A DNA stretch of 62,000 nucleotides from assembly GCA_013239625.1 (NCBI GenBank), contig MU053559.1, positions 1,178,001-1,240,000 of the forward strand, given 5' to 3'. The position numbers and the translations under genes were made by a program. Source of the DNA: Lama guanicoe (lineage: Eukaryota). The notes under the pieces are model-generated. The model saw only the letters and a list, made by a program, of their open reading frames with translations, searched no databases and was not told the origin of the DNA. Shown one piece after another: positions 5,368 through 61,869 of the stretch; the first letter of the stretch is position 1; each line of letters begins with the position of its first letter.

Positions 5368-8299
5368 TTTTTTATTGAAGTTGATTTACAATGTTAGTTT
5401 CAGGTGCACAGCAAAGTGACTCAGTTATACATATATATACATTTTTTTTCAGATTCTTTTCCATTATATGTTATTACAAGAAATTGACTATAGTTCCCTG
5501 AGCTATATAGTAAGAGCTTGTTGTTTGTTTATTTTATATATTCATAGTGTGTACCTGTTAATCCCAAACTCCTAATTTATCCATCCCCTGTTCTTTCCCT
5601 TTTGGTAGCCAGAGTTTGTTTTCTATGTCCATGAGTCTGTTTTTGGTTTGTAAATAGAATTTGTATCATTTTTTTTTAGATTCCACATATAAGTGATATC
5701 ACATGATATTTGTCTTCCTCTGTCTGACTTCACTTACTATGATAAGTTCTAGGTCCATCCACGTTGCTGCAAATGGCCTTATTTCATCCTTTTTAATGGC
5801 TAAGTAATATTCCATTATATACATATACATATAATGGAATATATATATATGTATATATATATCACACATATACCACATCTTATTTATCCATTCATAGACA
5901 TTTAGGTTGCTTCCATGTCTTGGCCATTGTAAATAGTGCTGCTATGAATATTGGGGTGCATATGTCTTTTAGAATTATAATTTTCTCCAGATATAGGCCC
6001 AGGAATGGAATTGCTGGATCACATAGTAAGTCTATTTTTAGTTTCTTAAGGAGCCTCCATACTGGCTACACCAATTTACATTCCCTCCAACAGTGTAGGA
6101 GGGTTCCTTTTTGTCCACACCCTCTCCAGCATTTATTATTTGTAGACATTTTAATGCTGGCCATTCTAACTGGTGTGAGGTGATAACTCATTAGAGTTTG
6201 GATTTGCCTTTCTCTAATAATTAGCAATATTGAGCATGTTTTTATGTGCCTGTTGGCAATCTGGACATCTTCCTTGGAGAAATATCTATTTAGATCTTCT
6301 GCCCATTTTTTGATTGGGTTTTTTTTTTTATATTAAGCTGCATGAGCTGTTGGTATATTTTGGAAATTAGTCCCTTGTTGATCATGCCATTTGCAAATAT
6401 TTTCTCCCATTCTGTAGGTTGTCTTTGCATTTTGTTTATGGTTTCCTTTGCTGTGCAAAAGCTTTTAAGTTTGATTAGGTCCCATTTGTATATTTTTGCT
6501 TTTATTTCCGTTACTCTAGGAGTTGGTTCAAAAAAATATTGCTGCAATTTATGTCAAAGAGTGTACTCATGTTCTGCCTATGTTTTCCTCTAGGAGTTTT
6601 ATAGTACCTGGTCTTACATTTAGGTCTTTAATCCATTTTGAGTTTATTTTTGTATATGGTGTTCGAGAGTGCTCTGATTTCATTCTTTTACGTGTAACTG
6701 TCCAGTTTTCCCAGCACCACTCATTGAAGAGACTATCTTTTCTCCATTGTATATTCTTACTGCCTTTGTCATAGATAAACTGACCATAAGTATGGGGGGT
6801 TATTTCTGGCCTTTCTATCCTGTTCCATTGATCTATGTGTCTGTTTTTGTGCTGGTACCATACTCTTTTGATTACTGTAGCTTTGTAGTATAGTCTAAAG
6901 TCAGGGAGTGTGATTCCTCCAGCGTCGTTCTTCTTTCTCAAGGTTGTTTTGGCTATTTGGGGTCTTTTGTGTACTCATACAAATTAAAAATTTTTTCTTT
7001 CAATTATGTGAAAAATGTTATTTGTAATTTGATAAGGATTGCCCTGAATCTATATATTGCCTTGGGTAGTATAGACATTTTAACACTATTGATTCTTCCA
7101 ATCCAAGAACACTGTATGTCTTTCCAAATCTGTTTGTGTCATCTTCAATTTCTTTCATCAGCTTCTTATAGTTTTCAGAGTACAGGTCCTTTGCCTCCTT
7201 AAGTAGGTTTATTCCTGGATATTTTATCCTTTTTGATGTGATGGTAAATGGGATTGTTTCCTTAAGTTTTTTTTCTGATATTTTGTTGTTAGTGTATAGA
7301 AACGAAACTGATTCCTGTGTATTAATTTTGTATCCTGCAACTTTAGCAAATCCATTGATGAGCTCTAGTAGTTTTCTGGTAGCCTCTTTAGGGTTTTCTA
7401 TGTATAGTATCATGTCATCTGCAAACAGTGACAGTTTTACTTCTTCTTTTCCAATTTGGATTCCTTTTATTTCTTTTTCTTCTCTGATTGCTGTGGCTAG
7501 GGCTTCGAAAACTATGTTGAAGAAAAGTGGCAAGAGTGGGCATCCTTGTCTTCTTCCTGATCTTAAGGGAAATGCTTTCAGCTTTTCACCATTGAGTATG
7601 ATGTTAGCTGTGGATCCGTCTGTATTATGTTGAGGTATGTTCCCTCTGTGCCCACTTTCTGGAGAGTTTTTTTATTGTAAATCAATGTTAAATTTTATCA
7701 AAAGCTTTTAGTGCATCTACTGAAATGATTATATGGTTTTTATTCTTCAGTTTGTTAATGTGGTGTATCATATTGATTGGTTTATGGATATTGGAAAATC
7801 CCTGCAATGAATCCTACTTGATCATAGTGTGTGATCCTTTTAATGTATTGTTGATGTCGACTTGCTAGTATTTTGTTGAGGATTTTGCACCTATATTCAT
7901 AAGTGATATTGGCCTATAACTTTCTTTTTTGTGACATCTTTTGTCTGGTTTTGGTATCAGGGTGATAGTGGCTTCATAGAATGAGTTTTGAAGTGTTTCT
8001 TCCTCTGCAATTTTTTGGAATGGTTTCAGAAGGGTAAGTGTTAACTTTTCTCTAAATGTTTGGTAGAATTCCCCTGTGAAGACATCTGGCCCTGGATTTT
8101 GTTGGGAGCTTTTAAATTACTGATTCAATTTCAGTGTCGGTAATTGGTCTGTTCACATTGTCTATTTCTTCCTGATTCAGTCTTGGGAGATTGTACCTTT
8201 CTAAGAGATTGTCCATTTCTTCTAGTTTGTCCATTTTGTTGGCATATAGTTGCTCAAGTAGCCTCTTATGATCCTTTGTATTTCTATAGTGTTGGTTGT
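5368..8299 (-). mobile_element. Younger 5'-truncated L1 (ORF2 RT domain to 3'UTR), antisense in the older L1
   Basis: [46 protein letters not shown]; 3' tail at left end. Confidence 0.95.
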
Positions 8300-20985: not shown

Positions 20986-21700
20986 AAGAGAAAGTATCTC
21001 ACAGCTCTGTTGAGCTGCAGATGTCCAGGTTCTATCACTTTGCCAAGAAACAAAGATATCCTTCCTGGATCACATACTGTTCCTTGGCCACTTCGCAATC
21101 TTTGTTGGATGCATTAGGACTGTGGGGGTGATAAAAAGAAAGTTTTGGCTTTTTAAAATCACGATAGCCTTTAAAAGAGTAGCAAGTCATCGCGCTACAC
21201 TTGCAAAAAAAACTATCTGGGAATAACTATAGAGCAGAAGAAAAGCTGAAAGTTATTTTTAAGGACTAAGGAAAGGAATGCATGGTACGTGCTCCATGTT
21301 ATCTGTTAAAATAGCCAACCACGGGGAAATATCTTTGGGGAGGAGTAGAGATTTTTATAAATGCAGAAAAAAATGTTACTTCTCTGGGTCTAAGCACAGT
21401 AACAAGGTCAAGGAAAAAATATATCAGAACTAGCAGAAAAACCGGGTTCTAGACCTTGAGAATCCAAACCTCTTAGTGATTTTAAGAGAATTACTGTGAC
21501 AAAGAAGGTGAATTTGACAGTGGCATGAAAAGCAGAAAGGGAATGAGAAAAGCAGAAAGCAAACTTGCATTGTCACGGGAGTAGCTTTGACCGTGAGCAT
21601 GGTGTCAGAATTTCAGGAGTGACAGAAAAAGCAGGTAGACAGATGGCAGAGGTATTTGCTGGACCCATAAGGAAGAGGGCCTTGAATATGTTATAATTGC

Positions 21701-22662
<962 letters not shown>

Positions 22663-25139: not shown

Positions 25140-25965
25140 ATTTAAGATGTCAGAAAAACAACAAGTTTCTACTGTAGAGCACAGGGAACTATATTCAATA
25201 TCTTGTAGTAACCTTTAATGAAAAAGAGTATGAAAACAAATATATGTATGTATATGTATGACTGAACACCAGAAATGCTGTACACCAGAAATTGACACAA
25301 CATTGTATACTTACCATACTTCAATTAAAAAATGAAAAGAAATTTGAGATGTCTATCCTTCCTTCAAAAAGATCGCAGAACAAACTGGTGGTTGCCAGAG
25401 GGGAAGAGCCGGGGGGACGGATGAAATAGGCGAAGTGGATTAAGAGGTACAAACTTCCAGCTATAAGATATGTCACAGTGAGGAGGGTATATAGGTCAGT
25501 GGCAGAGCACGTGCCTAACATGCATGAGGTCCTGAGTTCCATCCCCAGTACCTGCATTTAAATAAATAAATAACCTAATTAATCTCCCCCCAAAGCCCCA
25601 AAAACATACCAAAAAAGATATGTCAGGGGTATGTAATGTACATATAGGGAAAAAGTTTCATAATATTGTAGCAGCTTTGCGTGGTGATGGACGGTAACTG
25701 GTTTTATTATGGTGATCACTTCATAATGTATAAGAATATCAAATCACTATGTTGTACACCTGAAACTAATGTAATATTATATGTTAATTATAACTCAATA
25801 AAATATCTCAGTATGCAATGATTAGGTGTTAACTGAACTTATTGTGATAATTTCACAATATATACATATATCAAATCATCATGCTGTACACCTAAAACTA
25901 ATACAGTGTTATTTGTCAATTATGTCTCAGTAAAATTGGGGAAAAATAAATAAAAAAAATTTTTA
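25140..25965 (+). mobile_element. L1 3'-end fragments with a nested SINE
   Basis: CTGTAGAGCACAGGGAAC and TGTACACCTGAAACTAAT motifs. Confidence 0.75.
25481..25612 (+). mobile_element. tRNA-Ala-derived SINE
   Basis: TSD AAGATATGTCA. Confidence 0.82.
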
Positions 25966-26773
25966 AAGCTCTCAGAACACACACCACCACACACACCAGC
26001 TTGTGTTCAGTACTCACTTTCCCTGCACACTCAGATCTCTTTGCTAAGAGATTTAGGGCTTCCGATGTAGTCAATGACAGGTAATATGTATGCACTTAAT
26101 ATAGTTCCTTGTCATTTAATTCAGTACATTCAATAAAAGTAGCCTATTTGATGTATCTAACTCTGCCGGGGCTTCCTCTTGTCTATCTCCAGCAAAACAA
26201 TTTCTTTTGGTGTTTTCTGCTGAGTTTTAACATCAGAAAAGATGTAAGCTTTGGACTGTGATTACTATAAATTCTTTTCATTCTCCCAAAACACAAAATA
26301 ATCTTTAACTTGTTTTCTCATAAATAAAGTTACTTCCCCTGAACACCACAGCACAGTCTGAAGCTCCCGGTATCTCTGGGTCCTGTAAAAATGAAGACGC
26401 AGCCTTGTGTGGTTCTCTGATGGGAATCCTCAGAACATGCCAAAAATAGGGATGGAGATATGGATAAATTACACTGTAGCAGTCAAAGCAGGTGATGTTC
26501 AGTATCTGCTTGGGCACCAAAATAACCACCTCCTCTTTTTTCTATCCTGGGTTAAAACAAAGAGCTACCACAAATAGCTGAAATTGGGGAAGGGGGAGGG
26601 GAATTCCACCTTTGTTAAATTGCTCATTTTCAAACCACATGCCAGAACCGCTAAGAAAGTAGCAATGCCCCATGAACCTGAGCTATCCCTCCGGTGCCCA
26701 CCCTTTTCATCCACCATGGCAGGGTGCAAAGAGATAAAGCTAGGGTACGAGGGGATCTAAAATAATTAACTGT

Positions 26774-26906
26774 CTGCAGTCAATTAAGCTGACTGCTTTT
26801 TTCCTCATGGGGCCGAATGTGCAATGACTGCAAACAGTATTCTCCTCAGTAGTGTATGCAGCCTGTTGCCCATATGGGTTGCCCCAAAGGGACCTTGGAG
26901 ACAGCC
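26774..26906 (+). ncRNA. SNORA70: SNORA70 (U70) H/ACA snoRNA retrocopy
   Basis: Matches recalled U70 sequence (CTGCAGtCAATTAAGCtGACTG...GGGACCTTGGAGACAG). Box H ACAGTA at 26834-26839, ACA at 26901-26903, basal stem TGCAGTCA/TGACTGCA. Directly upstream of RPL10 exon sequence, its known host. Confidence 0.9.
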
Positions 26907-26950
26907 CTTTCCAGTGGACATTCATGTCTGGCACACTGTCCCCAACCTAG

Positions 26951-27337
26951 GCTCCAGATGGGTATGCACAGTGCCTTTGGAAAGCCTCATGGCACAGTGG
27001 CCAGGGTCCACACTGGCCAAGTCACCATGTCCAAGCGCACTAAGCTCCAGAGCAAGGAGCATGTGATTGAGGCCCTATACAGGGCCAAGTTCAAGTTCCC
27101 TGGCCGCCAGAAGATCCACATCTCGAAGAAGTGGGGATTTACCAAGTTTAATGGAGATGAATTTGAAAACATGGTGGCAGAAAAGTGACTCATCCCAGAT
27201 GAGTGTGGGGTCAAATATGTCCCTAATCGTGGCCCCTGGACAAATGGCGGCCCCTGCACTCATGAGAACCTTGGCACTGTCCCCTCCTTACTCACGACCA
27301 CCAACAAATCCTACTTTCCTGTCAATAAATAAATAAA
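26951..27337 (+). pseudogene. RPL10: RPL10 partial retrocopy (last two exons, spliced together)
   Basis: [20 protein letters not shown]...[19 protein letters not shown]...EK*. Premature TGA at 27186-27188, later 1-nt deletion, native stop at 27263-27265, A-rich tail. Confidence 0.95.
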
Positions 27338-27404
27338 CTGATCTCTAAAGAGTTGGCCCTATGAACATGGCTCATTCCTTCAAACTATAGAAATACATTT
27401 TCTA

Positions 27405-28000
27405 TTTTTAATGTTTATTAAAATATAGTTGATTTACAATGTGGTGTTAGTTTCTAGTATATAGCATAGTAATTCCGCTATATATATTTTATACATATAT
27501 ATATATATATGCACACACACACACACATTCTTTTTCATTATAGGTTATTACAAGCTATTGAATATAGTTCCCTGTGCTGTACAGTAGGACCTTGTTGTTT
27601 ATCTATTTTATACATAGTAGTTAGTATCTGCAAATCCCAAACTCCCAATTTATCCCTCCCCACCCCCTTTCCCCCAAGTAACCACAAGCTTGTTTTCTGT
27701 CTGTCAGTCTGTCCCTATTTTGTAAATAAGTTCATTTGTGTCATTTTTTCAGATTCTACATATAAGTGATATTGTATGATCTTTGTCTTTCCCTGTCTGA
27801 CTTGCTTAACTTAGCATGAAAATCTCTAGATCCATCCATGTTGCTGTAAACGGCATTATTTCATTCTTTTTTATGGCTGAGTAGTATTCCATTGTGTGTG
27901 TGCGTGTGTGTATAAATATATATATAGTATATATACATATATATACACATCCCATCTTCTTTATCCAATCATCTGTCAATGGACTTTTAAGTTGCTTCTC
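27405..28000 (-). mobile_element. L1 3' fragment
   Basis: MEYYSAIKKNEIMPFTATWMDLE. Confidence 0.88.
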
Positions 28001-36411: not shown

Positions 36412-37015
36412 TGTAAGCAAGCAGGACCCTGTGGGGCCCTCCTCCATATCCTCTGCTGTAGCTCTTCACTGAAGCACCCAGATAATATCTCATGCATGTT
36501 TCTGGAGTTTTTCAGATGCTAAAAACTACCACCAAGTGAAGAAATTAACTACTTGATGTTCATGAGCACGTAGCCCCCAGACCTTCTGGCATCTTAAGGA
36601 TTGATAATGTTAACAGCTGTGTTGCCTTAACATCAAGCAATCAGAATTGAGCACAAGCTGACCCCCCCATACCCTGGGATGCCCCTCCCTCACCTGGCCT
36701 TTTTTTTTTTCAGAGGGGGGCGGTTAATTAGGTTTATTTATTTACTTCTTTATTTTAATGGAGGCACTGGGGATTGAACCCAGGACCTCGTGCATGCTAA
36801 GCATGCACTCTGCCACTGAGCTATACCCTCCCCCTTCACCTGGCCTTTAAAAATGCTTTACTGAAACCCTTTGAGGAATCAGCGGGGTTTTGGGGCAGAA
36901 ACCACTCATTCTCCTTGCTCAGCCCTGCAACACACCTTTCTCTGCTCCAAACTCTGACATTTCCATTTGTTTGGCCTTGCTGTGTGTTGGGCACACCAAC
37001 TTGTGTTCGGTGACA
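36412..37015 (+). mobile_element. 3' LTR (interrupted by a SINE)
   Basis: TGTAAGCAAGCAGG...GTGACA directly after the polypurine tract. Confidence 0.9.
36703..36835 (-). mobile_element. tRNA-Ala-derived SINE inside the 3' LTR
   Basis: 13-bp TSD TCACCTGGCCTTT at 36690-36702 and 36836-36848; absent from the 5' LTR. Confidence 0.92.
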
Positions 37016-41825: not shown

Positions 41826-42273
41826 AAGCACACAGGCATAAAATGGGGGCTTAGGAAGTATGTGGGGGAAAAAAACCCACACTGCCAAGGAACACACTGG
41901 CACTTTTATATATACACAGCGCAAGGTACAGGGTCTCAATAAGAAAATACACTCTGTGTTGAGGTGCAGCCCACCACCCCCCCCTCAGAACACCCCAGGT
42001 TGAGGACAAGAGGGAAGGGGACAACCATAAATAGAGAATAGAAGGGAAGGGAATGCTCTAAGGGGCAAACACAGGCGGGGGACACAGTGCTGGGAGGAGA
42101 CACGACCTCTTCTTCCCCAGGAGAGAGCAACATAGCAGCACAGGAGAACAGTAGCCACGACTAAGCCTGTGACGCCCGGAATGGGGCACCTAACACGGGT
42201 AAGAGGACAGGGGTGGGTTCGGGAAGGAAGAGAGCAGAGATGGCTTCCTTCCCTGTGGCAGGGCCCAGGCCCC

Positions 42274-56700
<14,427 letters not shown>

Positions 56701-59374: not shown

Positions 59375-60608
59375 TTTTTCACTTTAGACTTTTTAATATT
59401 TCATACAGCGATTATGGTGCATTCAGGAACCCAACCCCCCAAACCCCCCTAGGAGGGCCCTGCCCCTGCCCTCTCACCCCATTTGAGGGCCCCAGGGTTT
59501 AGAGTGGAAGAAGGGGAGGTAACCACCCATCTGAGGACTAACCCCAGAAACTGTCCCTGCCCTGCCTCACCTTCCCTGGGGGTTAGGGGGTAACGCCTGG
59601 GCACAACCCCCCATGTGCCCCTCTGTCCCTGCTTGTGCGCATACACACACTATGGCTCCTTGCTGTGTCGGTCATTTCCTGGCAGGGCCCCTACTCAGCA
59701 GCACCGAGTGGGATGGGGGCAGGAGGGCTGGGCTAGGGAGACCCTGAGAAGGAGGCCCCAGCTATGGGACTCCAGGAGGGAAAGAGTGGGGGCCCCCCAC
59801 CTCATCCATCTCCCAGAGAGTCTCCAGTAGTCCCCAAGTCCCCCTGCAGCTGGGGATGGCAGGTGGGGGTCAGAAGGCGAGTGGTCAAGGCATGCTTTCC
59901 CTTAGCTGACCCCAGGGTCTGGTGATGGTCAGGGTTCTGAATAGGGGCTGTGTCCCTGCCATAGAAAGGCTGGGAGCGGGGCTTCATTGCACAAAATACT
60001 GTGGGAGGGCCACACGAAGTGGGTGGGGCCCAGCCAGTCTGTATACAGAGATATTGCATTTAAAAAATGAAAACCTCATTTAAAATTAATTAAAAAAAAA
60101 CAACAATGAATGAAACAAACAAAAAAAAGGCCCACACAACATGAGGCAGGTGGGACAGGGCAGGAAAACAGGCAGGGGAGCCTCAGACCCATGGCATCAC
60201 CATGTCTCGTCTGAGTCTGAGATCCCCAGCTTGGGCTAGCTCCGGACCCCTGGCTGGCCGTGGTGTAGTGGTCCTGGGGGAGGGTATGATGGGGAGGGGT
60301 ATAGGCCTGGCCTCAGCGTGGGAGGCTGGCACGGCCATGCTGTCCGCCGGCAACTACCGAGACAGAGACACAGAGATAGAGAGACAGACAGACAGACAGA
60401 CCAGGCGAGGGAGCGATGAGAGCTTTGTTAGCACCCAGCAGACAGGCCAATGGGTGGGTATTTGGACAGGCAGCAGGGAACATGTGGGCAGGCGAGCATG
60501 AGTCAGGCAGGTAGGCAGGCAGCAAGCAGGGAGGATGCAGTTGGGGGCTGCCCTGTGAGGGGTGTGGCATCCCTCCAGCTGCTGCCTGCTGGGGCCTCAG
60601 TCTGTGGA
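59375..60608 (-). other. CDK16: CDK16 3'UTR with ATTAAA poly(A) signal at 59392-59397
   Basis: Follows the stop codon; ATTAAA hexamer near the distal end; exact cleavage site approximate. Confidence 0.7.
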
Positions 60609-60646
60609 TTAGAACTCGGTGTCCACCACTCGGAAAGCTGGCCTGC
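60609..60646 (-). CDS. CDK16: CDK16 last coding exon
   Basis: [19 protein letters not shown]. Confidence 0.95.
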
Positions 60647-60737
60647 CTGCGGGCGAAAGCAGAGCGGATGGCTGTTGGTGGGCAAGCAGGTAGGTGAACA
60701 GGACAGGGGAGAGGGCAAGGACCACACCTATACCCAC

Positions 60738-60815
60738 CCGAGTCAGGCATTGACGAAGACCGAAGGCTGGCCTCCTTTTGTAGCTGGATCTCCTTTAGTG
60801 CAAATATGGAAGTAG
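60738..60815 (-). CDS. CDK16: CDK16 penultimate coding exon
   Basis: [39 protein letters not shown]. Confidence 0.95.
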
Positions 60816-61869
60816 CTGTGGGTGGGGGAGGAGAGAGAGAAGCGGGGCATGACCCATCAGGTCATCCAGGACCACCTCCCATGTGACCCCATCGGGGAAA
60901 TGAGAAAAAAATGCCTTTTCTTTGAGAGCCCTGACTTTTACCCATCAAATAATCCCCCACACAAACCAGCTTCAAGCAGGGGAAATGGAATATGGACTAT
61001 TACACGACACCAAGAAATCATTCATTTTGTCAAGGATGATAGTGGCATTGCAATTACCCCATGTTAAGTCTAGATGATGGATGGTATTTGGGATTTGACT
61101 GAGACTAATCCAATGGACCAGTATTCTTTAGCGTGATAATGGTATTATTGTTACGTTTTTAAAATATTTTAGAGATACATACTGAAATTATTTATAGATG
61201 AATGATGTATCTGGGGCTTGATTCAAAATAAACAGAGGTAATACAGATAAAACCAGATTGGCCATGAGTTGACTTGTTGGAGTACTTGGGGACTTAGCAT
61301 ATTATATGGTCTAATGTTTAAATATATCTAATTTTAAAATGTCCATATTAAAACATTTTTAAAAGTCAGATACAAAAAACACCGCATGTGACTCCAATTC
61401 TGGAGGGTACAAAGACGGGGTAAACTTATCTATGATGTTAGAAGTCAAACTAGTGGTAACCCTTGGAGGGGATGCCAGGAGTAACTGAAGGAGGCAGGAG
61501 GGCACTTTGGGGGAGCTTTTCATGTCCCATTTCTTGGCCTGTATCCGGTTACATGGGTGTTTAGTTTGTGAAAATTCATTGCGCTGTATACTTACGATCT
61601 GTGCATTTCTCAGAATCTATTTTACCATGTTTACTTTTTTAAAAAGGTAAAGTGATGTTGCACCGGTTTTTAAAGTATGTTTGAAAATTTCCATGAAAGG
61701 TGAGAGGAATTGAAAGCTAAGAAACTTTTTTTTGTAATCACCAACACATCACACACGTGAACAAGGGCACACCCGCACCGCCCACCCCGAGACGACCTGC
61801 CCAGCTGTCTGCGGCAGTCCTGTTCCCTAGGGCCCCCCACTGGCTGGCCCATTCCCCAGTTCTACTCAC

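What the first reader, a model, noticed from the sequence alone, without database searches (positions are those of the whole stretch)
26759..27340. Retrocopy of a 5'-snoRNA-ended, polyadenylated SNORA70-RPL10 transcript
Seen: the insertion starts essentially at the SNORA70 5' end (26774). It keeps the rest of the host intron up to its AG (26949-26950), then has the last two RPL10 exons spliced together (GRQK|IHIS at 27113/27114), the 3'UTR and an A-tail. The flanking TSD is degenerate (AAAATAATTAACTG / AAATAAATAAACTG). Established: SNORA70 is intronic in RPL10, and U70 retroposons carrying host exons have been described in mammals. Inference: the template was a stable RNA whose 5' end was protected by the H/ACA snoRNP (snoRNA-capped, polyadenylated intermediate), not a normal mRNA truncated at random.
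Basis: partly seen in the sequence, partly recalled or inferred. Interest (0 to 1): 0.7.

Follow-up and report, generated by a model that had tools for sequence, protein, structure and literature searches.

The report
Known SNORA70-RPL10 Type-3 snoRNA retrocopy
This is a decayed copy of a ribosomal-protein (RPL10) RNA fragment that starts at the small RNA SNORA70, likely pasted into the genome by LINE-1; this kind of element was described in mammals in 2006, so it is real but ordinary.

Summary
Rfam matches a complete SNORA70 at 26774-26906 (112.9 bits). A 44-nt spacer ends in AG at 26949-26950. RPL10 coding sequence then runs from residue 111 to the stop with no intron, broken by a premature stop and a 1-nt deletion. 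A 3' UTR and an A-rich end follow. The target-site duplication is only suggestive: 14 of 254 other A-tracts score as well.

This anatomy is the Type-3 U70 snoRNA retroposon of Weber 2006, which makes up 30 of 42 human RPL10 retrocopies. The template RNA, the RPL10-SNORA70 3'-snoRT, has since been detected in human cells.

I had no parental locus or empty site, so the exact 5' boundary and the intron origin of the spacer are inferred. No host gene was found for the copy, which lies about 14.5 kb past a USP11-like gene on the opposite strand; it is probably silent. The scan noted the same element type three times on other DNA. Verdict: a new member of a known kind, low interest.

The parts
26759..26772 (+). 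Left copy of a degenerate target-site duplication; starts at a CT/AAAA site, one substitution from the L1 endonuclease consensus TT/AAAA
   Evidence: consensus from PMC1687206 and PMC1802619. Support is weak: 14 of 254 control A-tracts score as well.
26773..26773 (+). One extra base between the TSD and Rfam model position 1 (templated or untemplated, not determined)
   Evidence: Weber allows a few untemplated nt; the human 3'-snoRT median 5' end is 2 nt upstream of H/ACA annotations.
26774..26906 (+). Complete SNORA70 (U70) H/ACA snoRNA copy; H box 26834-26839, ACA box 26901-26903
   Evidence: Rfam RF00156, 112.9 bits, model 1-135/135; boxes located
26907..26950 (+). 44-nt spacer, inferred to be the 3' end of RPL10's penultimate intron: branch-point-like A at 26924, pyrimidine fraction 0.67 over 18 nt, AG at 26949-26950
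   Evidence: RPL10 coding similarity starts right after it. Not aligned to a parental intron.
26951..27113 (+). RPL10 penultimate exon (163 nt; last base of codon 110 through K164)
   Evidence: PDB alignment from residue 111; Pfam PF00252 E 4.1e-09. The exon end at K164 is recalled.
27114..27265 (+). RPL10 last-exon coding part, joined without an intron. Premature TGA at 27186-27188 (in place of R189), 1-nt deletion in the C-run 27233-27236, natural stop 27263-27265.
   Evidence: 152 nt observed against 153 expected for residues 165-214 plus stop.
27266..27323 (+). 3' UTR (58 nt) with a polyadenylation-signal-like hexamer, one base off AATAAA, at 27303-27308, 15 nt before the A-rich tract
27324..27340 (+). 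A-rich tail remnant merged with the right TSD copy (27327-27340)

Best explanation
This is a decayed, probably silent Type-3 U70 snoRNA retroposon: a complete SNORA70, a 44-nt spacer ending in AG, and intron-less RPL10 coding sequence from residue 111 to the stop, likely copied into the genome by LINE-1 from an RPL10 RNA whose 5' end had been trimmed back to the snoRNA. Steps: (1) An RPL10 transcript kept the SNORA70-bearing penultimate intron while the last intron was spliced and the RNA polyadenylated (anatomy shown here; the RNA is shown in human cells in print). (2) It was cut upstream of the snoRNA and degraded 5' to 3' until the H/ACA snoRNP blocked the exonuclease (inferred; proposed by Weber 2006). 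I favour a cytoplasmic, NMD-type cut over a nuclear one at about 55:45, by analogy with NOP56/SNORD86; this is untested for RPL10. (3) LINE-1 reverse-transcribed it from the tail at a CT/AAAA site and made a TSD of about 14 nt (inferred; the TSD is weak). (4) The copy has since decayed: a stop, a frameshift, and about 14 of 95 residues changed.
For: Complete Rfam match starting 1 nt after the left repeat. The AG abuts the start of RPL10 similarity in the right codon phase, and coding similarity has no intron. No Pfam hit in the three + frames of the 1.27 kb upstream (0 of 3 frames), while a 54-residue piece of the element itself scores E 4e-09. The same anatomy is published: 30 of 42 human RPL10 retrocopies, 18 of them with the entire snoRNA; also rat, mouse, elephant and rabbit (PMC1687206); U70m type in PMC1802619. 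RPL10-SNORA70 3'-snoRT detected by long reads and ddPCR, and some snoRTs are cytoplasmic (PMC12152556). An H/ACA snoRNA can replace the C/D cap of SPA1 (review PMC11028025, passage). 14 DNA runs from 6 studies and 4 coded organisms hold 0.70-0.88 of the words of 26300-27800; flanks alone make up about 61% of that stretch, so element sequence is held too. One of these studies may be the window's own source.
Against: The TSD is not significant alone (14 of 254 control tracts score as well), and almost no poly(A) can be separated from it. No parental locus or empty site was obtained (no genome held; motif scan gave 4 of 4 chance hits). A single copy cannot by itself exclude a chance truncation at this point. 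The cytoplasmic location of the RPL10 3'-snoRT specifically was not stated in the passages I read.
Confidence: 0.92

Rival explanations
1. LINE-1 copied a full-length, intron-retaining RPL10 transcript (FL-snoRT), and reverse transcription happened to stop at the snoRNA 5' end, so no snoRNA-capped RNA was needed.
For: FL-snoRT forms of RPL10-SNORA70 exist in human cells. 5' truncation is common: 12 of 30 human Type-3 U70 copies hold only part of the snoRNA. The true 5' boundary was not checked against a parent here.
Against: Weber finds snoRT 5' ends at the mature snoRNA 5' end, with two U99 copies as the sole exception; 18 of 30 human U70 copies hold the whole snoRNA. Stalling on structure should leave partial snoRNAs rather than a complete one (inference). 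The start here is within 1 nt of Rfam position 1.
Confidence: 0.05
2. A chimera: a mature SNORA70 and a 5'-truncated ordinary RPL10 mRNA were joined by template switching or by two insertions at one site.
For: Template-switch and tandem snoRNA insertions are described. The spacer was not aligned to a parental intron.
Against: The spacer has a branch-point-like motif, a pyrimidine-rich tract and an AG exactly where RPL10 similarity starts. There is no A-tail between snoRNA and exon. The order is that of the native gene, where U70 is in the penultimate intron.
Confidence: 0.02
3. A DNA-level duplication of part of the RPL10 gene.
For: It contains intron-like sequence.
Against: RPL10 has one more intron after the U70 intron, yet coding similarity here is continuous to the stop. 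No upstream RPL10 coding match. It has an A-rich end.
Confidence: 0.01

Closest known systems
Type-3 U70 (SNORA70) snoRNA retroposons, 'snoRTs' (Weber 2006, PLoS Genet 2:e205, PMC1687206)
   Same: Same snoRNA, same host gene, same order: snoRNA 5' start, downstream intron, two spliced last exons, A-rich end, TSD of about 14 nt at an L1-like site.
   Different: Only the species. The U70 copies listed in section 8 are human, rat, mouse, elephant and rabbit; this window looks camelid (SINE family, inferred). This copy has a degenerate TSD and little tail. The paper's Figures S1-S3 and Table S1 (.doc) could not be read.
Exon-containing H/ACA retrogenes such as U70m (Luo and Li 2007, NAR 35:559, PMC1802619)
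   Same: U70 retrogenes with 3' intron and exon-derived sequence, poly(A), TSD and T2A4-like site; U70 has the most copies, 21.
   Different: Human only; the authors describe the template as partially processed hnRNA. No supplement could be read.
RPL10-SNORA70 3'-snoRT (Rambaldelli et al. 2025, PMC12152556) and the NOP56 SNORD86 cSPA / SPA lncRNAs (review PMC11028025)
   Same: Living RNAs with the structure inferred for the template: 5' end at the snoRNA, retained intron, spliced downstream exons, poly(A).
   Different: These are transcripts of the parental locus; the window holds a genomic copy with no evidence of expression. A term search of PMC12152556 found no mention of retroposition.

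Membership tests
Type-3 U70 snoRNA retroposon (Weber 2006) | [quoted passage not shown] | tested here: met
   Rfam position 1 at 26774, 1 nt after the left repeat. The boundary rests on a weak TSD, not on a parental alignment.
Type-3 U70 snoRNA retroposon (Weber 2006) | Holds the entire downstream intron of the parental gene | tested here: inconclusive
   44-nt spacer with a branch-point-like motif, pyrimidine tract and AG at the exon start; no parental intron available.
Type-3 U70 snoRNA retroposon (Weber 2006) | Processed (spliced) 3' exons of the host gene | tested here: met
   RPL10 residues 111-206 ungapped, then to 214 in the next frame after a 1-nt deletion.
Type-3 U70 snoRNA retroposon (Weber 2006) | Poly(A) or A-rich tail after the host poly(A) signal | tested here: met
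   A-rich tract from 27324, 15 nt after a signal-like hexamer; short and overlapping the TSD.
Type-3 U70 snoRNA retroposon (Weber 2006) | Target-site duplication of about 14 bp at an L1 endonuclease-like site | tested here: inconclusive
   14-nt pair with 3 mismatches at CT/AAAA; 14 of 254 control A-tracts score as well. With about 7% decay per copy, 3 or more mismatches have probability about 0.3.
Type-3 U70 snoRNA retroposon (Weber 2006) | Insertion point matching an empty orthologous site in another species | not testable with these tools
   No mammalian genome is held; no reads were laid on the locus.
Box H/ACA snoRNA SNORA70 (Rfam RF00156) | Covariance-model score above the gathering threshold, with H and ACA boxes | tested here: met
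   112.9 against 40 bits; boxes at 26834 and 26901.
Functional (expressed) SNORA70 copy | Lies in sense in a host intron and folds into two hairpins | tested here: inconclusive
   No cellular host exon found: 126 of the 131 ORFs of 70 aa or more in 1-41500 were scanned (the 5 left out lie in the element) and gave only RVT_1 and NAC hits. Short or non-coding exons would be missed. The two-hairpin fold is -33.9 against an MFE of -44.8 kcal/mol, with no parental control.
SPA / 3'-snoRT transcript | RNA with snoRNA 5' end and poly(A), shown by long reads or 5'-end mapping | not testable with these tools
   Shown in human cells in print; no RNA of this species was examined here.

The most novel reading that the evidence does not exclude
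Type-3 U70 retrocopies are a germline fossil record of a cytoplasmic, NMD-generated RPL10-SNORA70 RNA conserved across placental mammals, like the SNORD86 cSPA of NOP56. That would answer Weber's open puzzle of how nuclear snoRNAs reach the L1 machinery, and would point to a regulated splice switch at RPL10. I did not find this link stated or 62 (listings and term searches of an open-access library only). This single locus is compatible with it but does not test it.
Probability: 0.3. Interest if true: 0.35.

Novelty: new member of a known kind. Interest (0 to 1): 0.1.

Why it matters
Little on its own. It adds one more lineage (probably camelid) to a class that is the main mode of RPL10 retroposition in human, and SNORA70 is already the largest human H/ACA family, with 39 members (PMC8178906, passage). 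Its use is as one data point: such copies, counted genome-wide, record which RPL10 RNA forms were present in the germline, and they can mislead annotation as extra SNORA70 genes or ordinary RPL10 pseudogenes.

Tried and rejected
No whole genome is held, so copies could not be counted and the parent was not found. A motif scan of metagenome contigs gave 4 loci; all 4 match only over 19-20 nt and none has an Rfam hit, so they are chance hits. No reads or contigs were laid on the locus, which leaves the parental intron and the empty site open.

Folding did not give the canonical shape unaided: MFE z-score -2.24, two-hairpin fold 11 kcal/mol above the MFE. Without a parental control this is uninformative. 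A first A-tract control was too strict and missed the element's own tail (7 of 90 tracts within 3 mismatches), so it was redone.

Term searches of PMC9394076, PMC4233243 and PMC5513067 gave nothing on RPL10/SNORA70; the hits were RPL10A. PMC7699173 gave no exon map. The two papers checked disagree on the target: 18S U1692 for SNORA70C/F/G in PMC3766210, 28S U4975 for SNORA70 in PMC7760958. The first agrees with my recall; guide pairing was not tested against rRNA. I rejected a coding role (stop and frameshift) and a nested location in USP11 (that gene ends about 14.5 kb away on the other strand).

Full report
Observation. Rfam finds one snoRNA in the window: SNORA70 at 26774-26906 on the + strand, whole model, 112.9 bits, E 1.8e-21; the other 11 of 12 hits are tRNA-like. 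An H-box pattern lies at 26834 and an ACA 3 nt from the end. The basal stem of the 5' hairpin forms when that half is folded alone. It carries a paired change relative to the Rfam consensus (read by eye), which was probably inherited from the parent. A 44-nt spacer follows, with a branch-point-like A 26 nt before an AG at 26949-26950 and a pyrimidine fraction of 0.67 over the 18 nt before the AG.

Coding part. One base after the AG, the frame matches RPL10 from residue 111. The match is ungapped to residue 206, with a stop in place of R189. The remaining residues to 214 lie in the next frame and end at TGA 27263-27265 (weak hits, but 19 of the 28 listed are RPL10/uL16). From 27114 to the stop there are 152 nt against 153 expected, so one base is missing. 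Weber places U70 in the penultimate RPL10 intron, so one intron should lie downstream; none is present. Its position at K164/I165 is my recall. By hand count, about 14 of 95 residues differ from human-type RPL10, roughly 7% at the DNA level (rough conversion). That suggests an insertion tens of millions of years old (inference, rate assumed).

Ends. A 58-nt 3' UTR holds a hexamer one base off AATAAA at 27303-27308, and an A-rich tract starts 15 nt later. The proposed TSD (26759-26772 and 27327-27340) has 3 mismatches in 14. 13 of 61986 + strand 14-mers in the window are that close to the left copy. Against A-rich tracts, 14 of 254 score as well and 4 of 254 end in the same five bases. The TSD is therefore suggestive only, though its decay fits the copy's age (probability about 0.3 of 3 or more mismatches). 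The site is CT/AAAA, one base from the L1 consensus. If the TSD is 14 nt, only about 3 nt of tail remain.

Surroundings. The three + frames of 25500-26773 give no Pfam hit, so no upstream RPL10 exon is seen. Of 131 ORFs of 70 aa or more in 1-41500, 126 were scanned (the 5 in the element were left out); only an L1-type reverse transcriptase and a NAC fragment scored. A USP11-like gene (best PDB match USP11, E 1.5e-63) lies on the minus strand and ends near 41900, about 14.5 kb away. No host gene in sense was found, though short or non-coding exons would be missed. 14 DNA runs from 6 studies and 4 coded organisms hold 0.70-0.88 of the words of 26300-27800. The element is 39% of that stretch, so element sequence is held as well as flanks. 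One study may be the window's source. No reads were laid.

Mechanism. Shown: the order snoRNA, AG-ended spacer, intron-less exons, UTR, A-rich end. Inferred: an RPL10 transcript kept the snoRNA intron, was otherwise spliced and polyadenylated, was cut upstream, was trimmed 5' to 3' up to the snoRNP, and was copied by L1. I put this at 0.92. Random truncation of a full-length retained-intron RNA (0.05) would give 5' ends on both sides of the snoRNA start, but Weber reports starts at the mature 5' end with two U99 exceptions. A chimera (0.02) or a DNA duplication (0.01) does not explain the splice-site-like spacer and the missing last intron. Whether the cut is nuclear or NMD-linked is open; I lean to the latter at about 55:45. 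PMC12152556 links the 3' form to translation-dependent decay and finds many snoRTs in cytoplasm, and the review describes this route for SNORD86.

What is known. Weber 2006 (PMC1687206; abstract, section 8, first part of section 13 and passages read.doc supplements not readable) defines this class. U70 is the frequent case: 30 of 42 human RPL10 retrocopies, 18 with the whole snoRNA, plus rat, mouse, elephant and rabbit. The same trimming mechanism is proposed there. Luo and Li 2007 (PMC1802619; abstract, section 11 and table passages; no supplement) list 21 human U70 copies and the exon-bearing type. PMC12152556 (abstract, sections 3.1 and 3.2, passages) detects the RPL10-SNORA70 3'-snoRT. PMC11028025, PMC8178906, PMC13736004, PMC3766210, PMC7760958, PMC3531059, PMC7699173, PMC9394076, PMC4233243 and PMC5513067 were seen as term-search passages only. 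Membership: three defining features met, two inconclusive (intron identity, TSD), one untestable (empty site), none failed.

Earlier notes. The scan reported the same element type three times, once on another piece of this genome, and a similar RPL7A case. I had found Weber's paper before looking, and I did not check those loci.

Verdict. Real, correctly read, and already described in class and mechanism: a new member of a known kind, interest 0.1. The boldest reading still open is that these copies record a conserved cytoplasmic NMD product in the germline (probability 0.3, interest 0.35). It needs genome-wide counts and knockdowns, not this locus.

Noticed in passing
window 21691-22552, minus strand: NACA-like processed pseudogene (Pfam NAC, E 1.8e-4; gene name from recall of the translation) with an exact 14-bp TSD at 21691-21704 and 22539-22552, 4 kb from the SNORA70 copy.
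   Followed up: partly
window about 41900-50000, minus strand: USP11-like gene: UCH and DUSP domains, best PDB match USP11, last exon and stop near 42275.
   Followed up: partly
window about 60300-60860, minus strand: The translation resembles the C-terminal end of CDK16 (recall; no Pfam hit). CDK16 next to USP11 would place the window in the region matching human Xp11.3 (recall), on the same chromosome as RPL10.
   Followed up: no
window, 11 sites (e.g. 45371-45442 +, 36759-36830 -): tRNA-like Rfam hits; the 10 inspected are one short SINE family with A-rich tails. This fits the camel SINE vic-1 named in PMC3531059; not compared by sequence.
   Followed up: partly
window about 27400-27980 and 6500-7700: A multi-copy repeat directly 3' of the element (several 72-85% matches in the window), probably an L1 3' end; and L1 ORF2-like fragments with RVT_1 at 7018-7671, minus strand.
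   Followed up: partly
literature: PMC7760958 gives 28S U4975 as the SNORA70 target and 18S U1692 for SNORA64, while PMC3766210 lists 18S U1692 for SNORA70 copies; the two look swapped in the former.
   Followed up: no
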